A DNA stretch of 64,000 bases from Escherichia coli (GTDB lineage Bacteria > Pseudomonadota > Gammaproteobacteria > Enterobacterales > Enterobacteriaceae): the NCBI RefSeq assembly GCF_024502345.1, contig NZ_JALDNN010000001.1; one strand, written 5' to 3'. The position numbers and the translations under genes are program-made. The notes under the pieces were generated by a model. The model searched no databases. It was not told the DNA's origin and saw only the letters and a program-made list of their open reading frames with translations. This document shows, in pieces, positions 15,261-45,085 of this stretch. Position 1 is the stretch's first letter. Each line of letters begins with the position of its first letter.

Positions 15261-15667
15261 GAGCGGTTATTCTGCTCTTTCAGCAAATCACGAATTTCTG
15301 TCAGTAATACTTCTTCTTTAGTTGGTGCAGGTGCGGCTGCTGGTTCTTCTTTTTTCCGATTCAGTTTGTTGATTAGCTTAATCGCCATAAAGATGGCAAA
15401 GGCCACAATCAGAAAATCAAAGACGTTTTGAATGAAGACACCGTAATGCATCACAACAGCAGGGATATCCCCCTGCGCATCGCGTAGCGTGACAGCAAAC
15501 TGTTTAAAATCGATCCCGCCAATTAATAAGCCCAGAGGAGGCATGATGATATCGGCAACCAGTGAAGAGACAATCTTCCCGAATGCCGCACCGATAATGA
15601 CACCCACCGCCAAATCCACCACGTTCCCGCGCATCGCAAATTCGCGAAATTCTTTAATAATGCTCAT
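15257..15667 (-). CDS. mscL: Large-conductance mechanosensitive channel
   Basis: ORF track 136 aa [33 protein letters not shown]... Confidence 0.96.
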
Positions 15668-15796
15668 GTTATTCTCCCTATGAAGCCGACAACCATAAGT
15701 CTAACAAATGTTAAGCCATTTTCCTGCCAGGAATGAATTTAATTAATCCTTGATAATCAAAGGGAAATAATAAGGCGTCATTAGACGCCTTATTAA

Positions 15797-39836: not shown

Positions 39837-40258
39837 TACTATTCCTCAAAAAACCAAAAGCGCGTTATTTACCCAGAAAGGCAACGCGTTAACTCGCAGA
39901 AAGAAAAATACAGTTCGCTATCCTACAAATTATCATTCGTCGATGTAAGGAATAGTTATGAATACTGGCGTCTCAAGGCACATAAACACAAAAAAAGATT
40001 AATATTCTACTGTTTTATTTTGACGCGGGTTGAAAGAGGCAGAATTAAAACCTCGTAAATTGAAATATATATTCATGTGGCGAATGTATTTTAGGTAAAT
40101 AATATATATTATTTATTTGACGATTTATAGCAACTCAATGTTACCCTCTCGTATAAATACACATTAGATGATAGATTAACCTTCGCTATTTTCTCACCCT
40201 GTGTCGAATATATTTATTTCCTGAATAATTAATCATGGCAAAAAGAACCAAAGCCGAA

Positions 40259-40267
40259 GCTCTGAAG
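40259..40267. repeat. 9-bp target-site duplication GCTCTGAAG (left copy)
   Basis: Identical 9-mer directly flanks both IS ends. Confidence 0.9.
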
Positions 40268-40285
40268 GGCTTTGTTGAATAAATC
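40268..40285. repeat. IS903 left terminal inverted repeat
   Basis: GGCTTTGTTGAATAAATC. Confidence 0.9.
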
Positions 40286-40299
40286 GAACTTTTGCTGAG

Positions 40300-41268
40300 T
40301 TGAAGGATCAGATCACGTATCTTCCCGACAACGCAGACCGTTCCGTGGCAAAGCAAAAGTTCAAAATCACCAACTGGCCCACCTACAATAAAGCCCTCAT
40401 CAACCGTGGCTCCATAACTTTCTGGCTGGATGATGAAGCTATTCAGGCCTGGTATGAGTCAGCAACACCTTCTTCACGAGGCAGACCTCAGCGCTATTCT
40501 GACCTTGCCATCACGACTGTGCTGGTCATTAAACGCGTATTCAGGCTGACCCTGCGCGCTGCGCAGGGCTTTATTGATTCCATTTTTTCTCTGATGAACG
40601 TTCCGCTACGCTGCCCGGATTACAGCTGTGTCAGCAGGCGGGCAAAGTCGGTTAATGTCAGTTTCAAAACGCCCACCCGGGGTGAAATCGCACACCTGGT
40701 AATTGATTCCACCGGGCTGAAGGTCTTCGGTGAAGGCGAGTGGAAAGTCAAAAAGCATGGCCAGGAACGCCGCCGTATCTGGCGTAAGCTGCATCTCGCC
40801 GTTGACAGTAAAACACATGAAATCATCTGCGCTGACCTGTCGCTGAACAACGTTACGGACTCAGAGGCCTTCCCCGGGTTAATCCGGCAAACCCACCGGA
40901 AAATCAGGTCAGCCGCCGCCGATGGCGCTTACGATACCCGGCTATGTCACGATGAACTGCGGCGTAAGAAAATCAGCGCGCTTATCCCTCCCCGAAAAGG
41001 TGCGGGTTACTGGCCCGGTGAATATGCAGACCGTAACCGTGCAGTGGCTAATCAGCGAATGACCGGGAGTAATGCGCGGTGGAAATGGACAACAGATTAC
41101 AACCGTCGCTCGATAGCGGAAACGGCGATGTACCGGGTAAAACAGCTGTTCGGGGGTTCACTGACACTGCGTGACTACGATGGTCAGGTTGCAGAGGCTA
41201 TGGCCCTGGTACGAGCGCTGAACAAAATGACGAAAGCAGGTATGCCTGAAAGCGTGCGTATTGCCTGA
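40300..41268 (+). CDS. IS903-family DDE transposase
   Basis: ORF track 322 aa (MKDQITYLPDNADRSVAKQKFKITNWPTYNK...); the track start is a TTG codon, true initiation codon uncertain. Confidence 0.88.
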   Translation: MKDQITYLPDNADRSVAKQKFKITNWPTYNKALINRGSITFWLDDEAIQAWYESATPSSRGRPQRYSDLAITTVLVIKRVFRLTLRAAQGFIDSIFSLMNVPLRCPDYSCVSRRAKSVNVSFKTPTRGEIAHLVIDSTGLKVFGEGEWKVKKHGQERRRIWRKLHLAVDSKTHEIICADLSLNNVTDSEAFPGLIRQTHRKIRSAAADGAYDTRLCHDELRRKKISALIPPRKGAGYWPGEYADRNRAVANQRMTGSNARWKWTTDYNRRSIAETAMYRVKQLFGGSLTLRDYDGQVAEAMALVRALNKMTKAGMPESVRIA

Positions 41269-41306
41269 AAACACAACCCGCTACGGGGGAGACTTACCCG
41301 AAATCT

Positions 41307-41324
41307 GATTTATTCAACAAAGCC
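41307..41324. repeat. IS903 right terminal inverted repeat
   Basis: GATTTATTCAACAAAGCC, exact reverse complement of the left IR. Confidence 0.9.
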
Positions 41325-41333
41325 GCTCTGAAG
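41325..41333. repeat. 9-bp target-site duplication GCTCTGAAG (right copy)
   Basis: Identical to 40259-40267. Confidence 0.9.
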
Positions 41334-41965
41334 ACCCGGCAAGAACTGATTGAAACTGCCATCGCCCAGTTTGCGCAACATGGCGTAAGCAAGACGACGC
41401 TCAACGACATTGCCGATGCCGCTAACGTTACGCGTGGCGCTATCTACTGGCACTTCGAAAACAAGACTCAACTGTTTAATGAGATGTGGTTGCAACAGCC
41501 TTCATTGCGGGAGTTAATCCAGGAACACTTGACGGCTGGATTAGAGCATGACCCGTTTCAACAATTGCGTGAAAAATTGATTGTCGGCTTGCAATATATT
41601 GCCAAAATTCCCCGCCAGCAGGCGTTGCTGAAAATCTTATATCACAAATGTGAATTTAATGATGAGATGCTGGCCGAGGGAGTGATACGCGAAAAGATGG
41701 GCTTTAATCCGCAGACTCTCCGCGAAGTATTGCAGGCGTGTCAGCAACAAGGTTGTGTAGCAAATAACCTCGATTTAGATGTTGTGATGATTATTATTGA
41801 TGGTGCCTTCAGCGGAATTGTTCAAAACTGGTTAATGAATATGGCGGGTTATGATCTTTATAAACAAACCCCCGCTCTGGTCGATAACGTATTAAGAATG
41901 TTCATGCCAGATGAAAACATAACGAAATTAATTCATCAAACGAATGAATTAAGTGTCATGTAAAT

Positions 41966-42145
41966 TCACATTCTGTCCTGAAAATTCAGTTCGTCACAGT
42001 TAACCAGTTTTAGTGGATTAACTGAGTTCATATTACGGCATTTGTCTGTTTCTGTTGTCAGCAGTTCAATCCACTGCATCAGTAAAGTATCAAACAGAAA
42101 AACGAAGACAGCGAAAACGACGAGCCACCAATACTTGCGAATCAT
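41966..42145 (-). CDS. yhdU: Small membrane protein YhdU (59 aa)
   Basis: Start at internal ATG (MIRKYWWLVVFAVFVFLF...). Confidence 0.75.
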   Translation of the reverse strand: MIRKYWWLVVFAVFVFLFDTLLMQWIELLTTETDKCRNMNSVNPLKLVNCDELNFQDRM

Positions 42146-42228
42146 TACCTGAGCCTGTGCATGTTTAACCAAGTCTGGCAGGAAATATACACGAAATGAA
42201 TAATCTGAAAACCAGGCTTACACTTCCT

Positions 42229-43113
42229 TTACTTTGCAATGAGATCGGGGTCAACTTCGCTTAACCGGCTTCGTTTTGACAGGTTGCCGGTCTTTCTTTT
42301 TTTCACTTTCGCCAGTTCTTCCGCAGAGTAATGCGACGCGACATCCAGCCGTCGAAGCCCCATTTTGATGTACTCGCTGTTGATCTCAATACCAATGAAT
42401 TTTCGCCCGCTGGAGACGGCTACGGCACCGGTAGTAAAGCTACCGGCAAACGGGTCGAGAACGATATCGCCTGGGTTGGAAGAGGCGAGAATAATGCGTT
42501 TCAGTAAGGCTTCCGGTTTTTGCGTCGGGTGGTTTTCATATTCATCCATCAAATAACGCACGCGCGGAAAATCCCAGACGTTACCCGGTACTTTTTGATG
42601 ATTGTAAGGCTGTGGAGGATTTTTGCGATAATCGATCAACGCGCGCTGCGATCCGGTTTTGGCTTCTACCAGAATAGCATCACCGTTGAACGTGTAGTTC
42701 TTTGCGTCTTTCACCATCATCAGGATGGGTTCATACATGGAACCGTAGTGTTTTTTCGCCTGCACTCCAGAACTGTCATATGACCAGACGATGCGACTTT
42801 TGATGGTAAAAAGCTTGCGGCACTGGAGATCGATAAAGGGCATGTTTTCCGTACTGTTCATGATGTACATGCTGCCCTGCTTTTTCAGAACGCGGTGGCA
42901 CTCTGCAATCACTTCAAACAGCCAGTCGATAAACAGATCTTCTTTCCAGGCTTCGATCAGACCATCAAAATTTTTACCGATGTTATACGGTGGGTCGGCA
43001 AAGATCAGATCGACGCTTTCAGTAGGTAGCTTTTTAAGTTCGGCAAGGGCATCACCGTGAATAATGGTCTTAGCTTCATTACCAAACCGGGTCGGTTCAC
43101 ATCCTGTTCTCAT
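42229..43113 (-). CDS. yhdJ: DNA adenine (N6) methyltransferase YhdJ
   Basis: ORF track; DPPY catalytic motif (IFADPPYNIGK); start set at ATG 43111-43113. Confidence 0.92.
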   Translation of the reverse strand: MRTGCEPTRFGNEAKTIIHGDALAELKKLPTESVDLIFADPPYNIGKNFDGLIEAWKEDLFIDWLFEVIAECHRVLKKQGSMYIMNSTENMPFIDLQCRKLFTIKSRIVWSYDSSGVQAKKHYGSMYEPILMMVKDAKNYTFNGDAILVEAKTGSQRALIDYRKNPPQPYNHQKVPGNVWDFPRVRYLMDEYENHPTQKPEALLKRIILASSNPGDIVLDPFAGSFTTGAVAVSSGRKFIGIEINSEYIKMGLRRLDVASHYSAEELAKVKKRKTGNLSKRSRLSEVDPDLIAK

Positions 43114-43132
43114 GGTCACTCCCTTTGTGACA

Positions 43133-43177
43133 CCTATAAAAAAGGCGCTTCCCCATGCCGAGTAGCGCCTTTTTAAT
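43133..43177 (-). terminator. Intrinsic terminator that in K-12-like genomes lies directly after fis; here on the far side of the insertion
   Basis: 8-bp stem AAGGCGCT / AGCGCCTT with 14-nt loop, T-tracts on both sides. Confidence 0.7.
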
Positions 43178-43197
43178 CAAGCATTTAGCTAACCTGA

Positions 43198-43214
43198 ATT
43201 AGTTCATGCCGTAT
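43198..43214. repeat. 17-bp direct repeat TTAGTTCATGCCGTATT, distal att-like copy
   Basis: 17/17 identical to 45069-45085, which is the fis stop codon plus last codons. Confidence 0.85.
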
Positions 43215-43382
43215 TGTAAAATACAGAGTCATTATACGTAATTTATTATCACTCTAGATAATTTGTATTCATCATAAATAATTGATGCGGAAAGAGATAT
43301 TTATTTTTTATTGGCTCGCATTGTATCATCAGTTATCAGTTACTCCCTGCATACAGTTGTCAAAAAGGTTGTCATTAACTCT

Positions 43383-43551
43383 ATGGCCGAAAATAAACTC
43401 TCAGATGTTCAATTGCGTGCGTTAACCCGCAAAGTCATCGAAAAACCTTTTGATGTTGCTGACGGTGGCCAAGTTGGGTGAAAACCTGCTATGCAGCTAC
43501 CGCATAAGGGTAGTGGATTCCGCTGAAATCTTGCCGTTCATCCGATCATAA
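43383..43551 (+). pseudogene. Tyrosine-integrase N-terminal (arm-type DNA-binding domain) fragment, frameshifted and truncated
   Basis: Hand translation: MAENKLSDVQLRALTRKVIEKPFDVADGGQVG-stop, then +1 frame LGENLLCSYRIRVVDSAEILPFIRS; resembles the EKPY..DG(N/G)GLYL...WxxRY pattern of P4-type integrase N-termini. Confidence 0.45.
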
Positions 43552-43575
43552 CATCACAACAGTTGTTGCCCATTA

Positions 43576-43606
43576 CCCTGGCGAATGCCGGGGCTTTTTT
43601 TATTTT
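43576..43606 (+). terminator. Candidate intrinsic terminator downstream of the integrase fragment
   Basis: Imperfect stem CCCTGG..CCGGGG followed by CTTTTTTTATTTT. Confidence 0.3.
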
Positions 43607-43619
43607 CAAAGTGACGCCT

Positions 43620-43923
43620 AGGTGTCATTAATTTATAAGGTGTCATGGTAGGTGTCATTGTTCTCAAGCCATAACCCGCAAGGGTTGCGACATTACTAAT
43701 GACACCTATGACACCTATGACAGCATTTTTAAAGAAAATAACGACCACTGTAATAATGTAACAGTGGTCGTTATACTTTATAGAAATGGGTGTCATGGTG
43801 TCACAGGTGTCATTCATTACAGTATCTTGTTTGTATTTTTCTTTAATAATCAGCGTGTTTCCCGCTATGACACCTAATGACACCTTTCCAACATAACGCC
43901 GTCATGGTGACATTAGGTGTCAT
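43620..43923. repeat. Array of 13 copies of the 9-bp motif AGGTGTCAT in both orientations
   Basis: Forward copies at 43620, 43638, 43650, 43789, 43797 (GGTGTCAC), 43805, 43906 (GGTGACAT), 43915; reverse ATGACACCT at 43699, 43708, 43717 (degenerate), 43867, 43877. Confidence 0.85.
43738..43774. repeat. Perfect palindrome with 14-bp arms and 9-nt AT-rich loop, at the centre of the motif array
   Basis: ATAACGACCACTGT-AATAATGTA-ACAGTGGTCGTTAT. Confidence 0.85.
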
Positions 43924-44274
43924 CGCCATCTGCTGCCAAAAAAGTCAAGGTACTTCCGAGGGGGGTACAGCCTGCGGGGGCATTGGTCCCGCGTAATTCG
44001 CGTTGTGCGTGCCCCTACAAAACTCACTTTATGATTACGTCAAGTAAATCAATCATTTATGTGAATCCTATCAAAGCACTGGCACCATACGTGCGCGATT
44101 GCAAAATAAAGCGAACACGTTTTACACACGCTGAATTGTAAAGATGTGTAAATATCGATTACGCCGGATTATGCCGGGTTATTTGCAAGTATTCAGGGTT
44201 ATAAGTTACTGATTTTACATTAAAAAGCTCACATTGTGGCTATTGTGTTCGGTCTGGTTACTGTATATCTTTAA

Positions 44275-44991
44275 GTCATTCCAGGCGATTTAGCTGGCCT
44301 GGCGCTGGCAGGTTATCAGATTTACCGCCATTGGGCTGGTGTGAAGGCTTTCTTTGGCGGAGTGGGTGAAGGCATCAAATCCGGGCTGGAACCGCTTAGC
44401 GACGCTCTGAGCCGCCTTTATGAACGCATGGGGCCGCTGAAACCTGTCATTGATGGTGTGGGTGCTGCGGTTAAGACGGTTTTCAACTGGTTCACGTCAT
44501 TGACCGAGCCGGTCAAGTACAGTGGCGAGGAACTGGATAAGGCCGGTAAAATGGGGATGACGTTCGGTAAGACCCTGGCGGCTGGCATCGAGCTTGTGAC
44601 CGCACCGATCACGTTCCTGATTGATAAGATTCTGTGGGTGTCTGACAACATCGGCAACCTGACCAACAAGGCACTGGAGTTTAAAAACGCCGTGTCTGAT
44701 GTTGCTGGTGGTGCGTGGCAGAAAACCAAAGATTTCTTTACCGCACCATTCCGCGACGATGTACAGCAGCCAGCAGCAACCACTGCCTCTGGTGCTGCCC
44801 TGCCGTCACCTGCACTGGCCAACCGCTCTGGTGGCACTACGGTGCATAGCAACGACCAGTACCACATCAGCGTGAAGGCAGAACCTGGTATGAATGAAGA
44901 TGCATTAGCCCGGAAGGTGATACAGCAACTACGACAGCAACAAGCAGTAAGGCAGCGAAGCATGATGATAGATGGCGCGCAAACACCATAA
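44275..44991 (+). pseudogene. 5'-truncated ORF, possibly a phage tail tape-measure-like protein C-terminal region
   Basis: Frame is open from 44275 (stop at 44272-44274) with no good start or RBS; Gly/Ala-rich and hydrophobic segments (GVGAAVKTVFNWF, ITFLIDKILWV); product guessed from composition only. Confidence 0.35.
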
Positions 44992-45068
44992 GGGTTGTCA
45001 GTACGGTTGCAACAAAAAGTAAAGGGACTGAAATAGCCCCTTTAATTTCATGCCGTTACAGCTTGACT

Positions 45069-45085
45069 TTAGTTCATGCCGTATT
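45069..45085. repeat. 17-bp direct repeat TTAGTTCATGCCGTATT, fis-proximal att-like copy overlapping the fis stop codon
   Basis: Reverse complement encodes ..K-Y-G-M-N-stop of Fis. Confidence 0.85.

What the first reader, a model, noticed from the sequence alone, without database searches (positions are those of the whole stretch)
43620..43923. Array of 13 copies of AGGTGTCAT arranged around a perfect 14-bp-arm palindrome: candidate replication origin or multi-site protein-binding region
Within 304 bp the motif AGGTGTCAT (or reverse ATGACACCT) occurs 13 times, in the order 3 forward, 3 reverse tandem, palindrome (43738-43774, arms ATAACGACCACTGT, AT-rich loop), 3 forward tandem, 2 reverse, 2 forward, with an AT-rich tract at 43821-43860. 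No protein-coding ORF explains it; the 109-aa minus-strand ORF across it is a repeat artefact encoding MTPTMTP. Iterons flanking an AT-rich, palindrome-containing core are the classic layout of iteron-type origins in plasmids, lambdoid and satellite phages, and PICIs. Alternatives are integrase arm-type sites or a repressor operator cluster. The cognate initiator gene is missing, so it would be an orphan, possibly trans-activatable, origin.
Basis: seen in the sequence. Interest (0 to 1): 0.8.

Follow-up and report, generated by a model that had tools for sequence, protein, structure and literature searches.

The report
Orphan replication origin of a decayed phage satellite

Summary
All 9 exact AGGTGTCAT copies in the 64-kb window lie in 43620-43923 (0.45 expected). 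With one mismatch to the core GGTGTCAT there are 13 sites in the stated order.

The array belongs to a 1.85-kb remnant of a 9.5-kb island in the 3' end of fis. This is a "fis PICI", a catalogued satellite family.

Intact copies run int, alpA, hyp93, VapE-type Rep, hyp74, this array, a cos site, late genes, tape measure gene. Two deletions removed int-to-Rep and most late genes, so the origin is orphaned.

Relatives carry arrays of the same layout but with different repeats (GGTGTCAT, TGGACCCT, TCTGCACT, GGTGACCA). Repeat type tracks only the C-terminal winged-helix domain of the Rep. Two Reps 96-97% identical elsewhere but 43% there have different repeats.

The Rep model best matches SaPI1 Rep (7PDS). 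This is the PICI/SaPI origin design: iterons in opposite orientation flanking an AT-rich stretch.

Beside the array, 43939-44011 is 98.6% identical to the genome-end (cos) region of Jilinvirus myophages, the likely helpers.

No replication experiment was possible. Verdict: interpretation supported, new member of a known kind, modest interest.

The parts
43199..43215 (.). attL core TTAGTTCATGCCGTATT, the left copy of the 17-bp direct repeat that bounds the island
   Evidence: The same 17-mer flanks the intact island in L001 at 10998 and 20517. It is the reverse complement of the published fis-PICI identity block TACGGCATGAACTAA (PMC10111431).
43383..43469 (+). Remnant of the integrase gene (first 29 codons), ending at deletion junction 1 (43466-43469)
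   Evidence: blastn to L001; tblastn int aa 1-31.
43465..43551 (+). 3' remnant (aa 47-74 plus stop) of the 74-codon ORF that follows rep in intact islands
   Evidence: tblastn; annotation of L001 14862-15086.
43576..43603 (+). Terminator-like hairpin plus T run that closes the early (alpA-rep) operon
   Evidence: Conserved position and T run in relatives (alignment A1).
43620..43658 (+). Iteron group 1: three forward GGTGTCAT sites (43621, 43639, 43651)
43699..43724 (-). Iteron group 2: three reverse sites at 9-bp spacing (43699, 43708, 43717 degenerate)
43725..43788 (.). Central AT-rich spacer (GC 0.27), the presumed melting region. It contains the perfect 14-nt-arm palindrome 43738-43751 / 43761-43774.
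   Evidence: An AT-rich gap of 72-91 nt (start-to-start of the flanking sites) is conserved in all relatives. The palindrome is not conserved.
43789..43813 (+). Iteron group 3: three forward sites at 8-9-bp spacing (43789, 43797 degenerate, 43806)
43814..43866 (.). Second AT-rich spacer (GC 0.32)
43867..43923 (.). Iteron groups 4 and 5: two reverse sites (43867, 43877) and two forward sites (43906 degenerate, 43916), forming a 21-nt inverted repeat
   Evidence: (I2).
43939..44011 (+). cos site shared with Jilinvirus helper-type phages. The putative 13-nt cohesive end GGGGCATTGGTCC lies at 43977-43989.
   Evidence: 98.6% identity over 73 bp to ep3 15601-15673, upstream of terS. The ECOO78 record carries the 13-mer at both ends, and the Arya record starts at the equivalent of 43973.
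44040..44060 (+). Block conserved in all island variants, with an IHF-consensus match at 44047-44059
   Evidence: Alignment A1; pattern scan. Function is inferred only.
44291..44292 (.). Deletion junction 2. It joins the region upstream of the late operon to the 3' third of the tape measure gene.
   Evidence: blastn to L001.
44314..44991 (+). C-terminal fragment (aa 538-762) of the island's tail tape measure gene
   Evidence: tblastn at 99.6%; PHROG 28 and TIGR01760 on the intact protein.
45069..45085 (.). attR core TTAGTTCATGCCGTATT, overlapping the fis stop codon

Best explanation
The array is the replication origin (ori) of a phage satellite of the PICI type that integrates into the 3' end of fis.

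Proposed mechanism in the intact 9.5-kb island (inferred by homology to SaPI Rep, PMC9371898):
1. The island's Rep is a VapE-family SF3 helicase.
2. Its C-terminal winged-helix domain binds the 8-9-bp iterons taGGTGTCAT.
3. Rep hexamers assemble on the oppositely oriented iteron groups on either side of the AT-rich spacer 43725-43788.
4. They melt the spacer and load themselves as the replicative helicase.
5. The amplified island DNA is then cut and packaged at the adjacent cos site by the terminase of a Jilinvirus-type helper phage.

In this window two deletions removed int, alpA, hyp93, rep and most late genes. The iterons and cos are intact, but the origin is orphaned. It can only fire if a Rep of the same specificity is supplied in trans.

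What is shown: anatomy, synteny, covariation, and the fold of Rep. What is inferred: binding, melting and origin firing.
For: 1. Enrichment. All 9 exact 9-mers in 64 kb lie in 304 bp, against 0.45 expected. In the intact island 11 of 12 exact GGTGTCA lie in the array.

2. Context. The window locus is a deletion derivative of a 9.5-kb island bounded by 17-bp repeats at the fis stop codon. The intact gene order is int, alpA, hyp93, VapE, hyp74, array, late genes, tape measure gene. The same order is seen in Pantoea, Klebsiella and metagenome copies.

3. Conserved layout with changing sequence. The layout is 2-3 sites, about 46-49 nt, 2-3 inverted sites at 8-10-nt spacing, a 72-91-nt AT-rich gap, 1-3 sites, 46-70 nt, 2 inverted sites, then 1-2 sites. 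It recurs with GGTGTCAT/C, GGTGTCAG, TGGACCCT, TCTGCACT and TTGGTCAC.

4. Covariation.
- Only the last 85 aa of VapE separate same-iteron pairs (54-91% identity) from different-iteron pairs (20-47%).
- The L005 and L009 Reps are 96% identical in the N-terminal part and 97% in the middle, but 43% in the C-terminal part. Their iterons differ.
- AlpA is 98% identical between L007 and L009, which have different iterons.
- Int is 91% identical between L005 and L009, which have different iterons.
- hyp93 is 85% identical between L001 and L009 (different iterons) but about 20% between L001 and L004 (same iteron).

5. Rep fold. The AF2 model has pLDDT 86.9. Its C-terminus is strand-helix-helix-wing. 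The best PDB match is SaPI1 Rep1 (7PDS): Foldseek E 1e-19, TM 0.66 over almost the whole target. The sequence profile hit has E 7e-26.

6. Literature.
- SaPI Reps bind iterons through a C-terminal winged helix. There are 6-12 iterons just downstream of rep, an AT-rich centre, and at least 2 iterons on each side in opposite directions (PMC9371898).
- Gram-negative PICIs have the same ori layout, and the pri-rep-ori of EcCICFT073 drives plasmid replication (PMC6092414).
- fis PICIs are catalogued, and one excises and replicates after mitomycin C (PMC10111431).

7. Wider recurrence. 11 of 65 distant VapE loci have at least 5 copies of an 8-mer; in 10 of the 11 the cluster starts 27-85 nt after the stop codon. 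The helper-type phages ep3, ECOO78 and Arya have their own GGTGACNA arrays. Satellite L011, whose C-terminal domain is closest to the phage one, uses GGTGACCA.
Against: - There is no experimental test of binding or origin activity for this family here.
- The covariation rests on 7 island loci plus 3 phages.
- In the type-A islands a 74-codon ORF lies between rep and the array. It occurs only with this iteron type, so it cannot be excluded by covariation as a co-factor.
- Rep binding to the array could also serve autoregulation or copy control rather than, or besides, initiation.
- In the window itself the defining neighbour (rep) is absent, so any function there is conditional.
Confidence: 0.85

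Rival explanations
1. The array is mainly a transcriptional control region for the downstream late operon, or a Rep autoregulation / copy-control ('handcuffing') site. It would be bound by Rep or another factor without being where replication starts.
For: It lies between the early-operon terminator (43576-43603) and the late genes. Weak promoter-like matches overlap it. Iteron arrays in plasmids often double as control sites (general knowledge).
Against: The promoter-like count is no higher than in shuffles (5 against 3.8). The array is separated from the late genes by cos and about 370 nt. The layout (opposed iteron groups around an AT-rich core, next to a self-loading helicase gene) is that of SaPI/PICI origins. 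The regulators AlpA, hyp93 and the RHH-like hyp54 do not covary with iteron type.
Confidence: 0.07
2. The repeats are terminase small-subunit binding sites (cosB-like) that belong to the adjacent cos packaging site.
For: The array ends 16 nt before the 73-bp block shared with Jilinvirus cos regions. Lambda cosB contains repeated Nu1 sites (general knowledge).
Against: Similarity to helper phages stops at 43939, and the array itself has no phage match. ep3 has no GGTGTCA cluster anywhere, and none near its cos. The repeats change with the island's own Rep domain while cos stays conserved.
Confidence: 0.03
3. The repeats are arm-type binding sites of the island integrase (part of attP/attL).
For: In the window the array is only about 400 bp from attL. 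Arm-type sites are short repeats in both orientations (general knowledge).
Against: The proximity is created by the deletion. In intact islands the array is about 4.1 kb from attL and about 5.1 kb from attR. Integrases 91% identical go with different repeats (L005/L009), and integrases 58% identical go with the same repeats (L001/L007).
Confidence: 0.01
4. The region encodes the 109-aa minus-strand protein annotated by PGAP, and the DNA repeats reflect a peptide repeat.
For: An ORF at 43554-43883 (-) exists and is annotated as WP_000052065.1 in many genomes.
Against: The frame is closed in L007 (same iterons, nearly the same DNA) and in all other variants. Half of the repeats are in the opposite orientation. 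Gene callers call no gene spanning the array in any relative; in L004, L005, L007 and L009 they call none there at all.
Confidence: 0.01

Closest known systems
PICI / SaPI Rep-ori replicons (SaPI1, SaPIbov1, SaPI5; Gram-negative EcCICFT073)
   Same: Short iterons just downstream of rep. At least 2 iterons on each side of an AT-rich centre, in opposite orientation. 13 sites here, against 6-12 in SaPIs. The initiator is a self-loading SF3 helicase with a C-terminal winged helix, and the best structural match is SaPI1 Rep1 (7PDS). The early operon int-alpA-rep is unidirectional, and a helper cos is carried as in EcCICFT073.
   Different: The iterons are 8-9 nt rather than 5-6 nt and lie in five groups rather than two. 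The Rep has a family-specific 150-aa N-terminal domain in place of a primase domain. A 74-codon ORF lies between rep and ori in this subtype. In this window rep is deleted.
fis PICIs (Gram-negative PICIs integrated in fis; PMC10111431)
   Same: The same attachment site and identity block at the fis stop codon, the same int-alpA-replication-late zone order, and yhdJ as the neighbouring gene.
   Different: That survey did not describe the origin repeats or a helper for this subtype. This subtype is small (9.5 kb) and carries a tape measure gene and a Jilinvirus cos. The window holds only a 1.85-kb remnant.
Satellite phage P4 ori/crr with the alpha protein
   Same: 8-bp iterons (TGTTCACC in P4, from my own knowledge) in both orientations, bound by the C-terminal winged-helix domain of a primase-helicase. 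The element is a cos satellite of a myovirus. A distant VapE locus (L065) even has CGTTCACC x9.
   Different: There is no second cis site like crr: 11 of 12 exact GGTGTCA in the island lie in the one array. The Rep lacks an active-looking primase domain, and the helper family differs.
Iteron plasmid and lambda-type origins (pSC101, R6K, P1, F; lambda ori/O)
   Same: Multiple initiator-binding repeats next to an AT-rich unwinding region.
   Different: Those use 17-22-bp repeats bound by RepA-type or O proteins, usually with DnaA boxes, and lambda ori lies inside the O gene. Here the repeats are 8-9 bp, there are no DnaA boxes or GATC in the array, the region is non-coding, and the initiator is itself the helicase.

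Membership tests
PICI/SaPI-type Rep-ori replicon | Multiple short iterons, at least two on each side of an AT-rich region and in opposite orientation | tested here: met
   13 sites in 5 groups of alternating orientation. The spacers have GC 0.27 and 0.32.
PICI/SaPI-type Rep-ori replicon | The array lies immediately 3' of the rep gene | tested here: met
   Met in intact relatives. The array starts 303 nt after the VapE stop in L001 (with a 74-codon ORF between), 48 nt in L005 and 42 nt in L009. Not met in the window itself, where rep is deleted.
PICI/SaPI-type Rep-ori replicon | The initiator is an SF3 self-loading helicase with a C-terminal winged-helix domain | tested here: met
   Pfam VapE-like domain. 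PDB profile hit to 7PDS at E 7e-26. AF2 pLDDT 86.9 with a C-terminal winged helix. Foldseek top hits are SaPI1 Rep1 at TM 0.66.
PICI/SaPI-type Rep-ori replicon | Rep and ori are specificity-matched | tested here: met
   Iteron class tracks only the Rep C-terminal 85 aa across 7 islands and 3 phages. This is comparative evidence, not biochemical.
PICI/SaPI-type Rep-ori replicon | Rep plus ori supports autonomous replication | not testable with these tools
   Needs the conditional-vector assay used for EcCICFT073 (PMC6092414).
fis PICI | Integrated at the fis 3' end, with the identity block TACGGCATGAACTAA in attL and attR | tested here: met
   TTAGTTCATGCCGTATT at 43199 and 45069; the latter overlaps the fis stop codon.
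fis PICI | Co-oriented int, alpA and replication genes | tested here: not met
   They are present in intact relatives. In the window only the first 29 int codons remain, and there is no alpA or rep. The window therefore holds a remnant, not a functional member.
fis PICI | Helper-phage-dependent induction and transfer | not testable with these tools
   Only indirect support: cos 98.6% identical to Jilinvirus phages.
P4-type ori/crr | A second cis-acting iteron cluster (crr) several kb from ori | tested here: not met
   11 of 12 exact GGTGTCA in the 9.5-kb island are in the single array. There are 0 exact 8-mers outside it in L007.
Iteron plasmid origin (RepA type) | 17-22-bp tandem direct repeats with DnaA boxes and a RepA-family initiator | tested here: not met
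   The repeats are 8-9 bp in inverted groups, there is no DnaA box in the array, and the initiator is a helicase.
Integrase arm-type sites | Sites lie within the att arms and covary with the integrase | tested here: not met
   The array is about 4-5 kb from both att sites in intact islands. There is no covariation with Int.
cosB / terminase binding repeats | The repeats are shared with the helper's cos region | tested here: not met
   Phage similarity is confined to 43939-44011. ep3 has no GGTGTCA cluster.

The most novel reading that the evidence does not exclude
The 9.5-kb fis-PICI subtype is an unrecognised satellite of Jilinvirus myophages. Its Rep and ori descend from the helper's own primase-helicase and iteron origin (GGTGACNA) and have diverged in specificity by coupled changes in the winged-helix domain and the iterons.

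The remnant in this window keeps an intact ori next to an intact cos. A Rep of matching specificity, supplied by an incoming intact island together with a helper infection, could then amplify and package the flanking chromosome (the fis and acrEF region). Alternatively the remnant could act as a decoy that titrates Rep or terminase.
Probability: 0.15. Interest if true: 0.6.

Novelty: new member of a known kind. Interest (0 to 1): 0.35.

Why it matters
For annotation:
- The "hypothetical protein" WP_000052065.1 is a non-coding origin.
- The yhdJ-fis spacer in this lineage is a decayed satellite.

For the field:
- The family offers a natural series of Rep C-terminal-domain swaps paired with different 8-nt iterons. 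That makes the recognition code of these self-loading helicases directly testable.
- It also predicts a helper (Jilinvirus, whose lifestyle is described as enigmatic) for a satellite subtype that carries its own tape measure gene.

The origin itself adds an example rather than a new principle.

Tried and rejected
- **blastn of the array against 50,697 phage records:** no match. Only the adjacent cos block matches.
- **Rfam at a permissive threshold:** only sub-threshold plant and animal miRNA-hairpin hits. These are caused by the 117-nt imperfect palindrome 43698-43814. No known RNA family is present.
- **Contigs of 9.4-9.5 kb as a sign of free circular island DNA:** rejected. L100-L102 carry chromosomal flanks on both sides, so they are assembly breaks in mixed populations. 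The 29-bp terminal overlap of L007 equals the att identity block and is ambiguous.
- **DnaA boxes and GATC in the array:** none.
- **The perfect palindrome as a conserved origin element:** rejected. It is 14 nt only in the E. coli variant, 8 nt in L007, 6 nt in Pantoea, and absent elsewhere apart from a 6-nt TATATA self-match in L011.
- **The repeat TATGCCGGGTTAT (44160-44202) as a helper-shared operator:** it is not present in clusters in ep3, ECOO78 or Arya.
- **hyp54 (ribbon-helix-helix-like) as the iteron binder:** rejected. Its N-terminal strand is nearly the same in islands with different iterons.
- **PHROGs and NCBIfam:** nothing for hyp93, hyp74, hyp294 or hyp104. NCBIfam also found nothing for VapE.
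- **The hyp294 model:** low confidence (pLDDT 45), so its capsid-like matches are only a lead.
- **The genome-contig scan:** it returned only distant VapE loci outside Enterobacterales. It was usable for a general recurrence test but not for more fis-island variants.

Full report
**1. The observation**

The region 43620-43923 contains all 9 exact copies of AGGTGTCAT/ATGACACCT found in the 64-kb window. Shuffles give 0.45 +/- 0.69, and none of 100 reaches 9.

The order is as described:
- three forward sites (43621, 43639, 43651)
- three reverse sites (43699, 43708, 43717)
- an AT-rich spacer with a perfect 14-nt-arm palindrome (43738-43751 / 43761-43774)
- three forward sites (43789, 43797, 43806)
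- a second AT-rich spacer
- two reverse sites (43867, 43877)
- two forward sites (43906, 43916)

The oriented consensus is taGGTGTCAT.

**2. Where it sits**

The window is an E. coli-type chromosome: acrF, acrE, an IS5-interrupted acrS, yhdU, yhdJ, then fis, dusB, prmA, panF.

In most E. coli genomes yhdJ and fis are neighbours; 5,423 of 5,426 complete genomes match the yhdJ-side flank, and the spread sample of hits all lie at the fis 3' end. Here 1.85 kb lies between them.

The array is present in 47 of 5,426 complete E. coli genomes. The three copies examined (JML285, TUM9757, EF7-18-51) sit in a 9.5-kb island between yhdJ and fis.

The island is bounded by the 17-bp direct repeat TTAGTTCATGCCGTATT, which overlaps the fis stop codon. 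Its genes are co-oriented, in this order:
- integrase
- AlpA-like HTH protein
- a 93-aa protein (hyp93)
- a 562-aa VapE-domain protein
- a 74-aa protein (hyp74)
- a 766-bp non-coding stretch (L001 15087-15852) that holds the array
- a 294-aa protein (hyp294)
- several small proteins
- a 762-aa tail tape measure protein

The window copy is a double-deletion derivative:
- Window 42001-43469 equals L001 up to codon 29 of int.
- 43466-44292 equals L001 15001-15827, with 2 mismatches and none in an iteron core.
- 44291 onward equals L001 19738 onward, the last third of the tape measure gene.

tblastn finds no Rep, AlpA or complete integrase anywhere in the window.

The same remnant, 100% identical over 1,951 bp, occurs in four other public contigs. 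An intermediate form that still has alpA, hyp93, rep, hyp74 and the array also exists. No complete E. coli RefSeq genome has the remnant.

**3. Comparative evidence that it is a protein-binding array tied to Rep**

Related islands at fis were recovered from Pantoea stewartii, Klebsiella michiganensis and metagenome assemblies.

Each has a repeat array at the same place, but the repeat differs:

| Locus | Repeat |
|---|---|
| E. coli, L007 | GGTGTCAT |
| Pantoea (L004) | GGTGTCAC |
| L010 | GGTGTCAG |
| L005 | TGGACCCT |
| L009 | TCTGCACT |
| L011 | TTGGTCAC |

Each array has 9-13 sites, and each exact 8-mer is absent or nearly so elsewhere in its locus. The layout is conserved:
- 2-3 sites
- about 46-49 nt
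- 2-3 inverted sites at 8-10-nt spacing
- a 72-91-nt AT-rich gap (GC 0.27-0.43, against 0.50-0.52 for the loci)
- 1-3 sites
- 46-70 nt
- 2 inverted sites
- 1-2 sites

The perfect palindrome is not conserved.

I compared every island protein family between loci. Only the last 85 residues of the VapE protein separate same-repeat pairs (54-91% identity) from different-repeat pairs (20-47%).

The sharpest case is L005 against L009. Their Reps are 96% identical over residues 1-150, 97% over 151-470, and 43% from 471 to the end. Their repeats are unrelated.

The other candidates fail:
- AlpA is 98% identical between L007 and L009, which have different repeats.
- Integrase is 91% identical between L005 and L009, which have different repeats.
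- hyp93 is 85% identical between L001 and L009 (different repeats) and about 20% between L001 and L004 (same repeat).
- The RHH-like 54-aa protein has almost the same N-terminal strand in islands with different repeats.

They exclude integrase arm sites and an AlpA or small-regulator operator cluster.

The 74-aa ORF between rep and the array occurs only with the GGTGTCA class. It cannot be excluded as an accessory factor, but arrays of the same design exist without it.

**4. What the Rep is**

The protein carries a Pfam VapE-like domain. A profile of the family hits one relevant solved structure, 7PDS, at E 7e-26. 7PDS is the SaPI1 Rep1-DNA complex (PMC9371898).

An AlphaFold2 model built on 120 sequences has mean pLDDT 86.9. 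It ends in a strand (495-498), a helix (499-505), a helix (513-527) and a two-strand wing (532-542), which is a winged helix.

The helix 513-527 (KSQATQCGNILRKLT) is where the specificity classes differ.

Foldseek against the PDB ranks the six chains of 7PDS first (E about 1e-19, target-normalised TM 0.63-0.67 over 455-466 columns). Other primase-helicases follow: NrS-1, the ASFV PrimPol, SaPI5 PriRep5 and poxvirus D5/E5.

The literature states three relevant points:
- SaPI Reps are self-loading helicases and initiators. Their C-terminal winged helix recognises iterons.
- There are 6-12 iterons immediately downstream of rep. An AT-rich region lies at the centre, with at least two iterons on each side pointing in opposite directions (PMC9371898).
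[quoted passage not shown] The EcCICFT073 pri-rep-ori segment drives plasmid replication (PMC6092414).

The array here fits that description point for point.

**5. Wider recurrence**

Among 65 distant VapE loci from a scan of representative genomes, 11 have at least 5 exact copies of one 8-mer. In 10 of the 11 the cluster starts 27-85 nt after the stop codon. Examples are AGGGACCA x9, CGTTCACC x9, GCACTACC x8 and ATCGTTGC x8. Control tiles mostly have 2-4 copies.

The phages whose primase is most similar to this Rep (65% over residues 159-556) are ep3, ECOO78 and Arya. Each has 10-14 GGTGACNA sites in one non-coding gap.

The satellite L011 has the C-terminal domain closest to the phage one (62%), and it uses GGTGACCA. 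This adds another matched pair of domain and iteron.

**6. The neighbour: a cos site and a likely helper**

Directly right of the array, 43939-44011 is 98.6% identical over 73 bp to phage vB_EcoM-ep3 15601-15673, upstream of its small terminase gene. It also matches ten further Jilinvirus records, eleven in all.

The deposited linear genome of ECOO78 carries GGGGCATTGGTCC at both ends (equal to window 43977-43989). The Arya record begins at the equivalent of 43973. Both ends lie next to terS. This is therefore the helper-type cos site.

The island's tape measure protein is 42% identical over its full length to that of ep3.

No paper in the library links Jilinvirus to a satellite. The lifestyle of these phages is described as enigmatic (bioRxiv 10.1101/2024.09.12.612763).

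The array is not part of cos. Phage similarity stops at 43939, and ep3 has no GGTGTCA cluster.

**7. Not coding, not an RNA**

The 109-aa minus-strand ORF is open only in the E. coli variant. Rfam gives only sub-threshold hairpin hits, which are due to the long imperfect palindrome.

**8. Known or new**

PICIs integrated in fis are already catalogued: 2,642 plus 923 elements, the att block TACGGCATGAACTAA, and one member that excises and replicates after mitomycin C (PMC10111431).

The ori design is established for SaPIs and Gram-negative PICIs. In the searches I made of the library, I found no description of three things:
- this iteron and its variants
- their pairing with the Rep winged-helix domain in this subfamily
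- the Jilinvirus cos link

The finding is therefore a new member of a known kind. In this window it is a decayed, orphaned copy.

**9. Verdict**

The missing piece is an experiment.
- Interest is modest (0.35). The value lies in correcting annotation, in a testable Rep-iteron recognition series, and in a predicted satellite-helper pair.

Noticed in passing
window 43939-44011: A 73-bp block 98.6% identical to the region upstream of terS in Jilinvirus phages. The 13-nt GGGGCATTGGTCC (43977-43989) is present at both ends of the ECOO78 genome record. It is a helper-type cos site carried by the island and predicts Jilinvirus myophages as helpers.
   Followed up: yes
window 44314-44991; L001 18150-20438: The island encodes its own 762-aa tail tape measure protein, 42% identical over its full length to that of phage ep3. 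The window keeps only the last 225 aa. My literature searches found no report of a tape measure gene in such a small satellite. Its role (tail-length change or interference) is unknown.
   Followed up: partly
L001 15853-16737 (deleted in the window): The first late gene (294 aa) has no Pfam, PHROG or NCBIfam hit. A low-confidence model (pLDDT 45) matches only HK97-fold capsid and encapsulin structures among the top 50 PDB hits. It is possibly a PICI capsid-like protein. This is a weak lead.
   Followed up: partly
L008 13190-13448; L012 2332-2653; L013 39404-39700: The helper-type phages ep3, ECOO78 and Arya each have 10-14 GGTGACNA repeats in one non-coding gap about 2.3-2.7 kb from their primase gene. 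This is probably their own origin. Satellite L011 uses the same repeat.
   Followed up: partly
L001 13164-13620 (Rep residues 1-150): The N-terminal 150 aa of this Rep are family-specific. Nearly all relatives found in 1.8 billion representatives align only from about residue 105-170 onwards, most from about 145. MAFFT places this part under the Toprim domain of longer relatives with the acidic motif residues replaced. It is possibly a dead primase domain. The evidence is weak.
   Followed up: no
L015 and L017 (public contigs): An intermediate decay form exists with alpA, hyp93, rep, hyp74, the array and the truncated tape measure gene. The late-gene deletion therefore came first. In L017 a second PICI (int, DUF6387, AlpA) follows in tandem.
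   Followed up: partly
L010 (10.6-kb metagenome contig): An arrangement without an integrase: late genes, tape measure, Rep (692 aa), a GGTGTCAG array, cos, then a Nu1-like terS. Cos-region sequence is also at the contig start. It is either a chimera of satellite and helper through the shared cos, or a plasmid-like relative.
   Followed up: no
window 44160-44202: Three direct copies of TATGCCGGGTTAT-like sequence upstream of where the late operon starts. They are partly conserved in Pantoea (TTATGCCGGA x2) and are not clustered in the helper phages. This is a possible late-promoter control site.
   Followed up: partly
window about 40200-41480: An IS5-type transposase ORF (40300-41268) interrupts acrS/envR. 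Only the C-terminal part of AcrS remains as an ORF (41484-41963).
   Followed up: no
window 45043-45058: An imperfect extra copy of the att core (TTTCATGCCGTTACAG) and a replacement terminator lie just inside attR, so fis keeps a terminator after integration.
   Followed up: no
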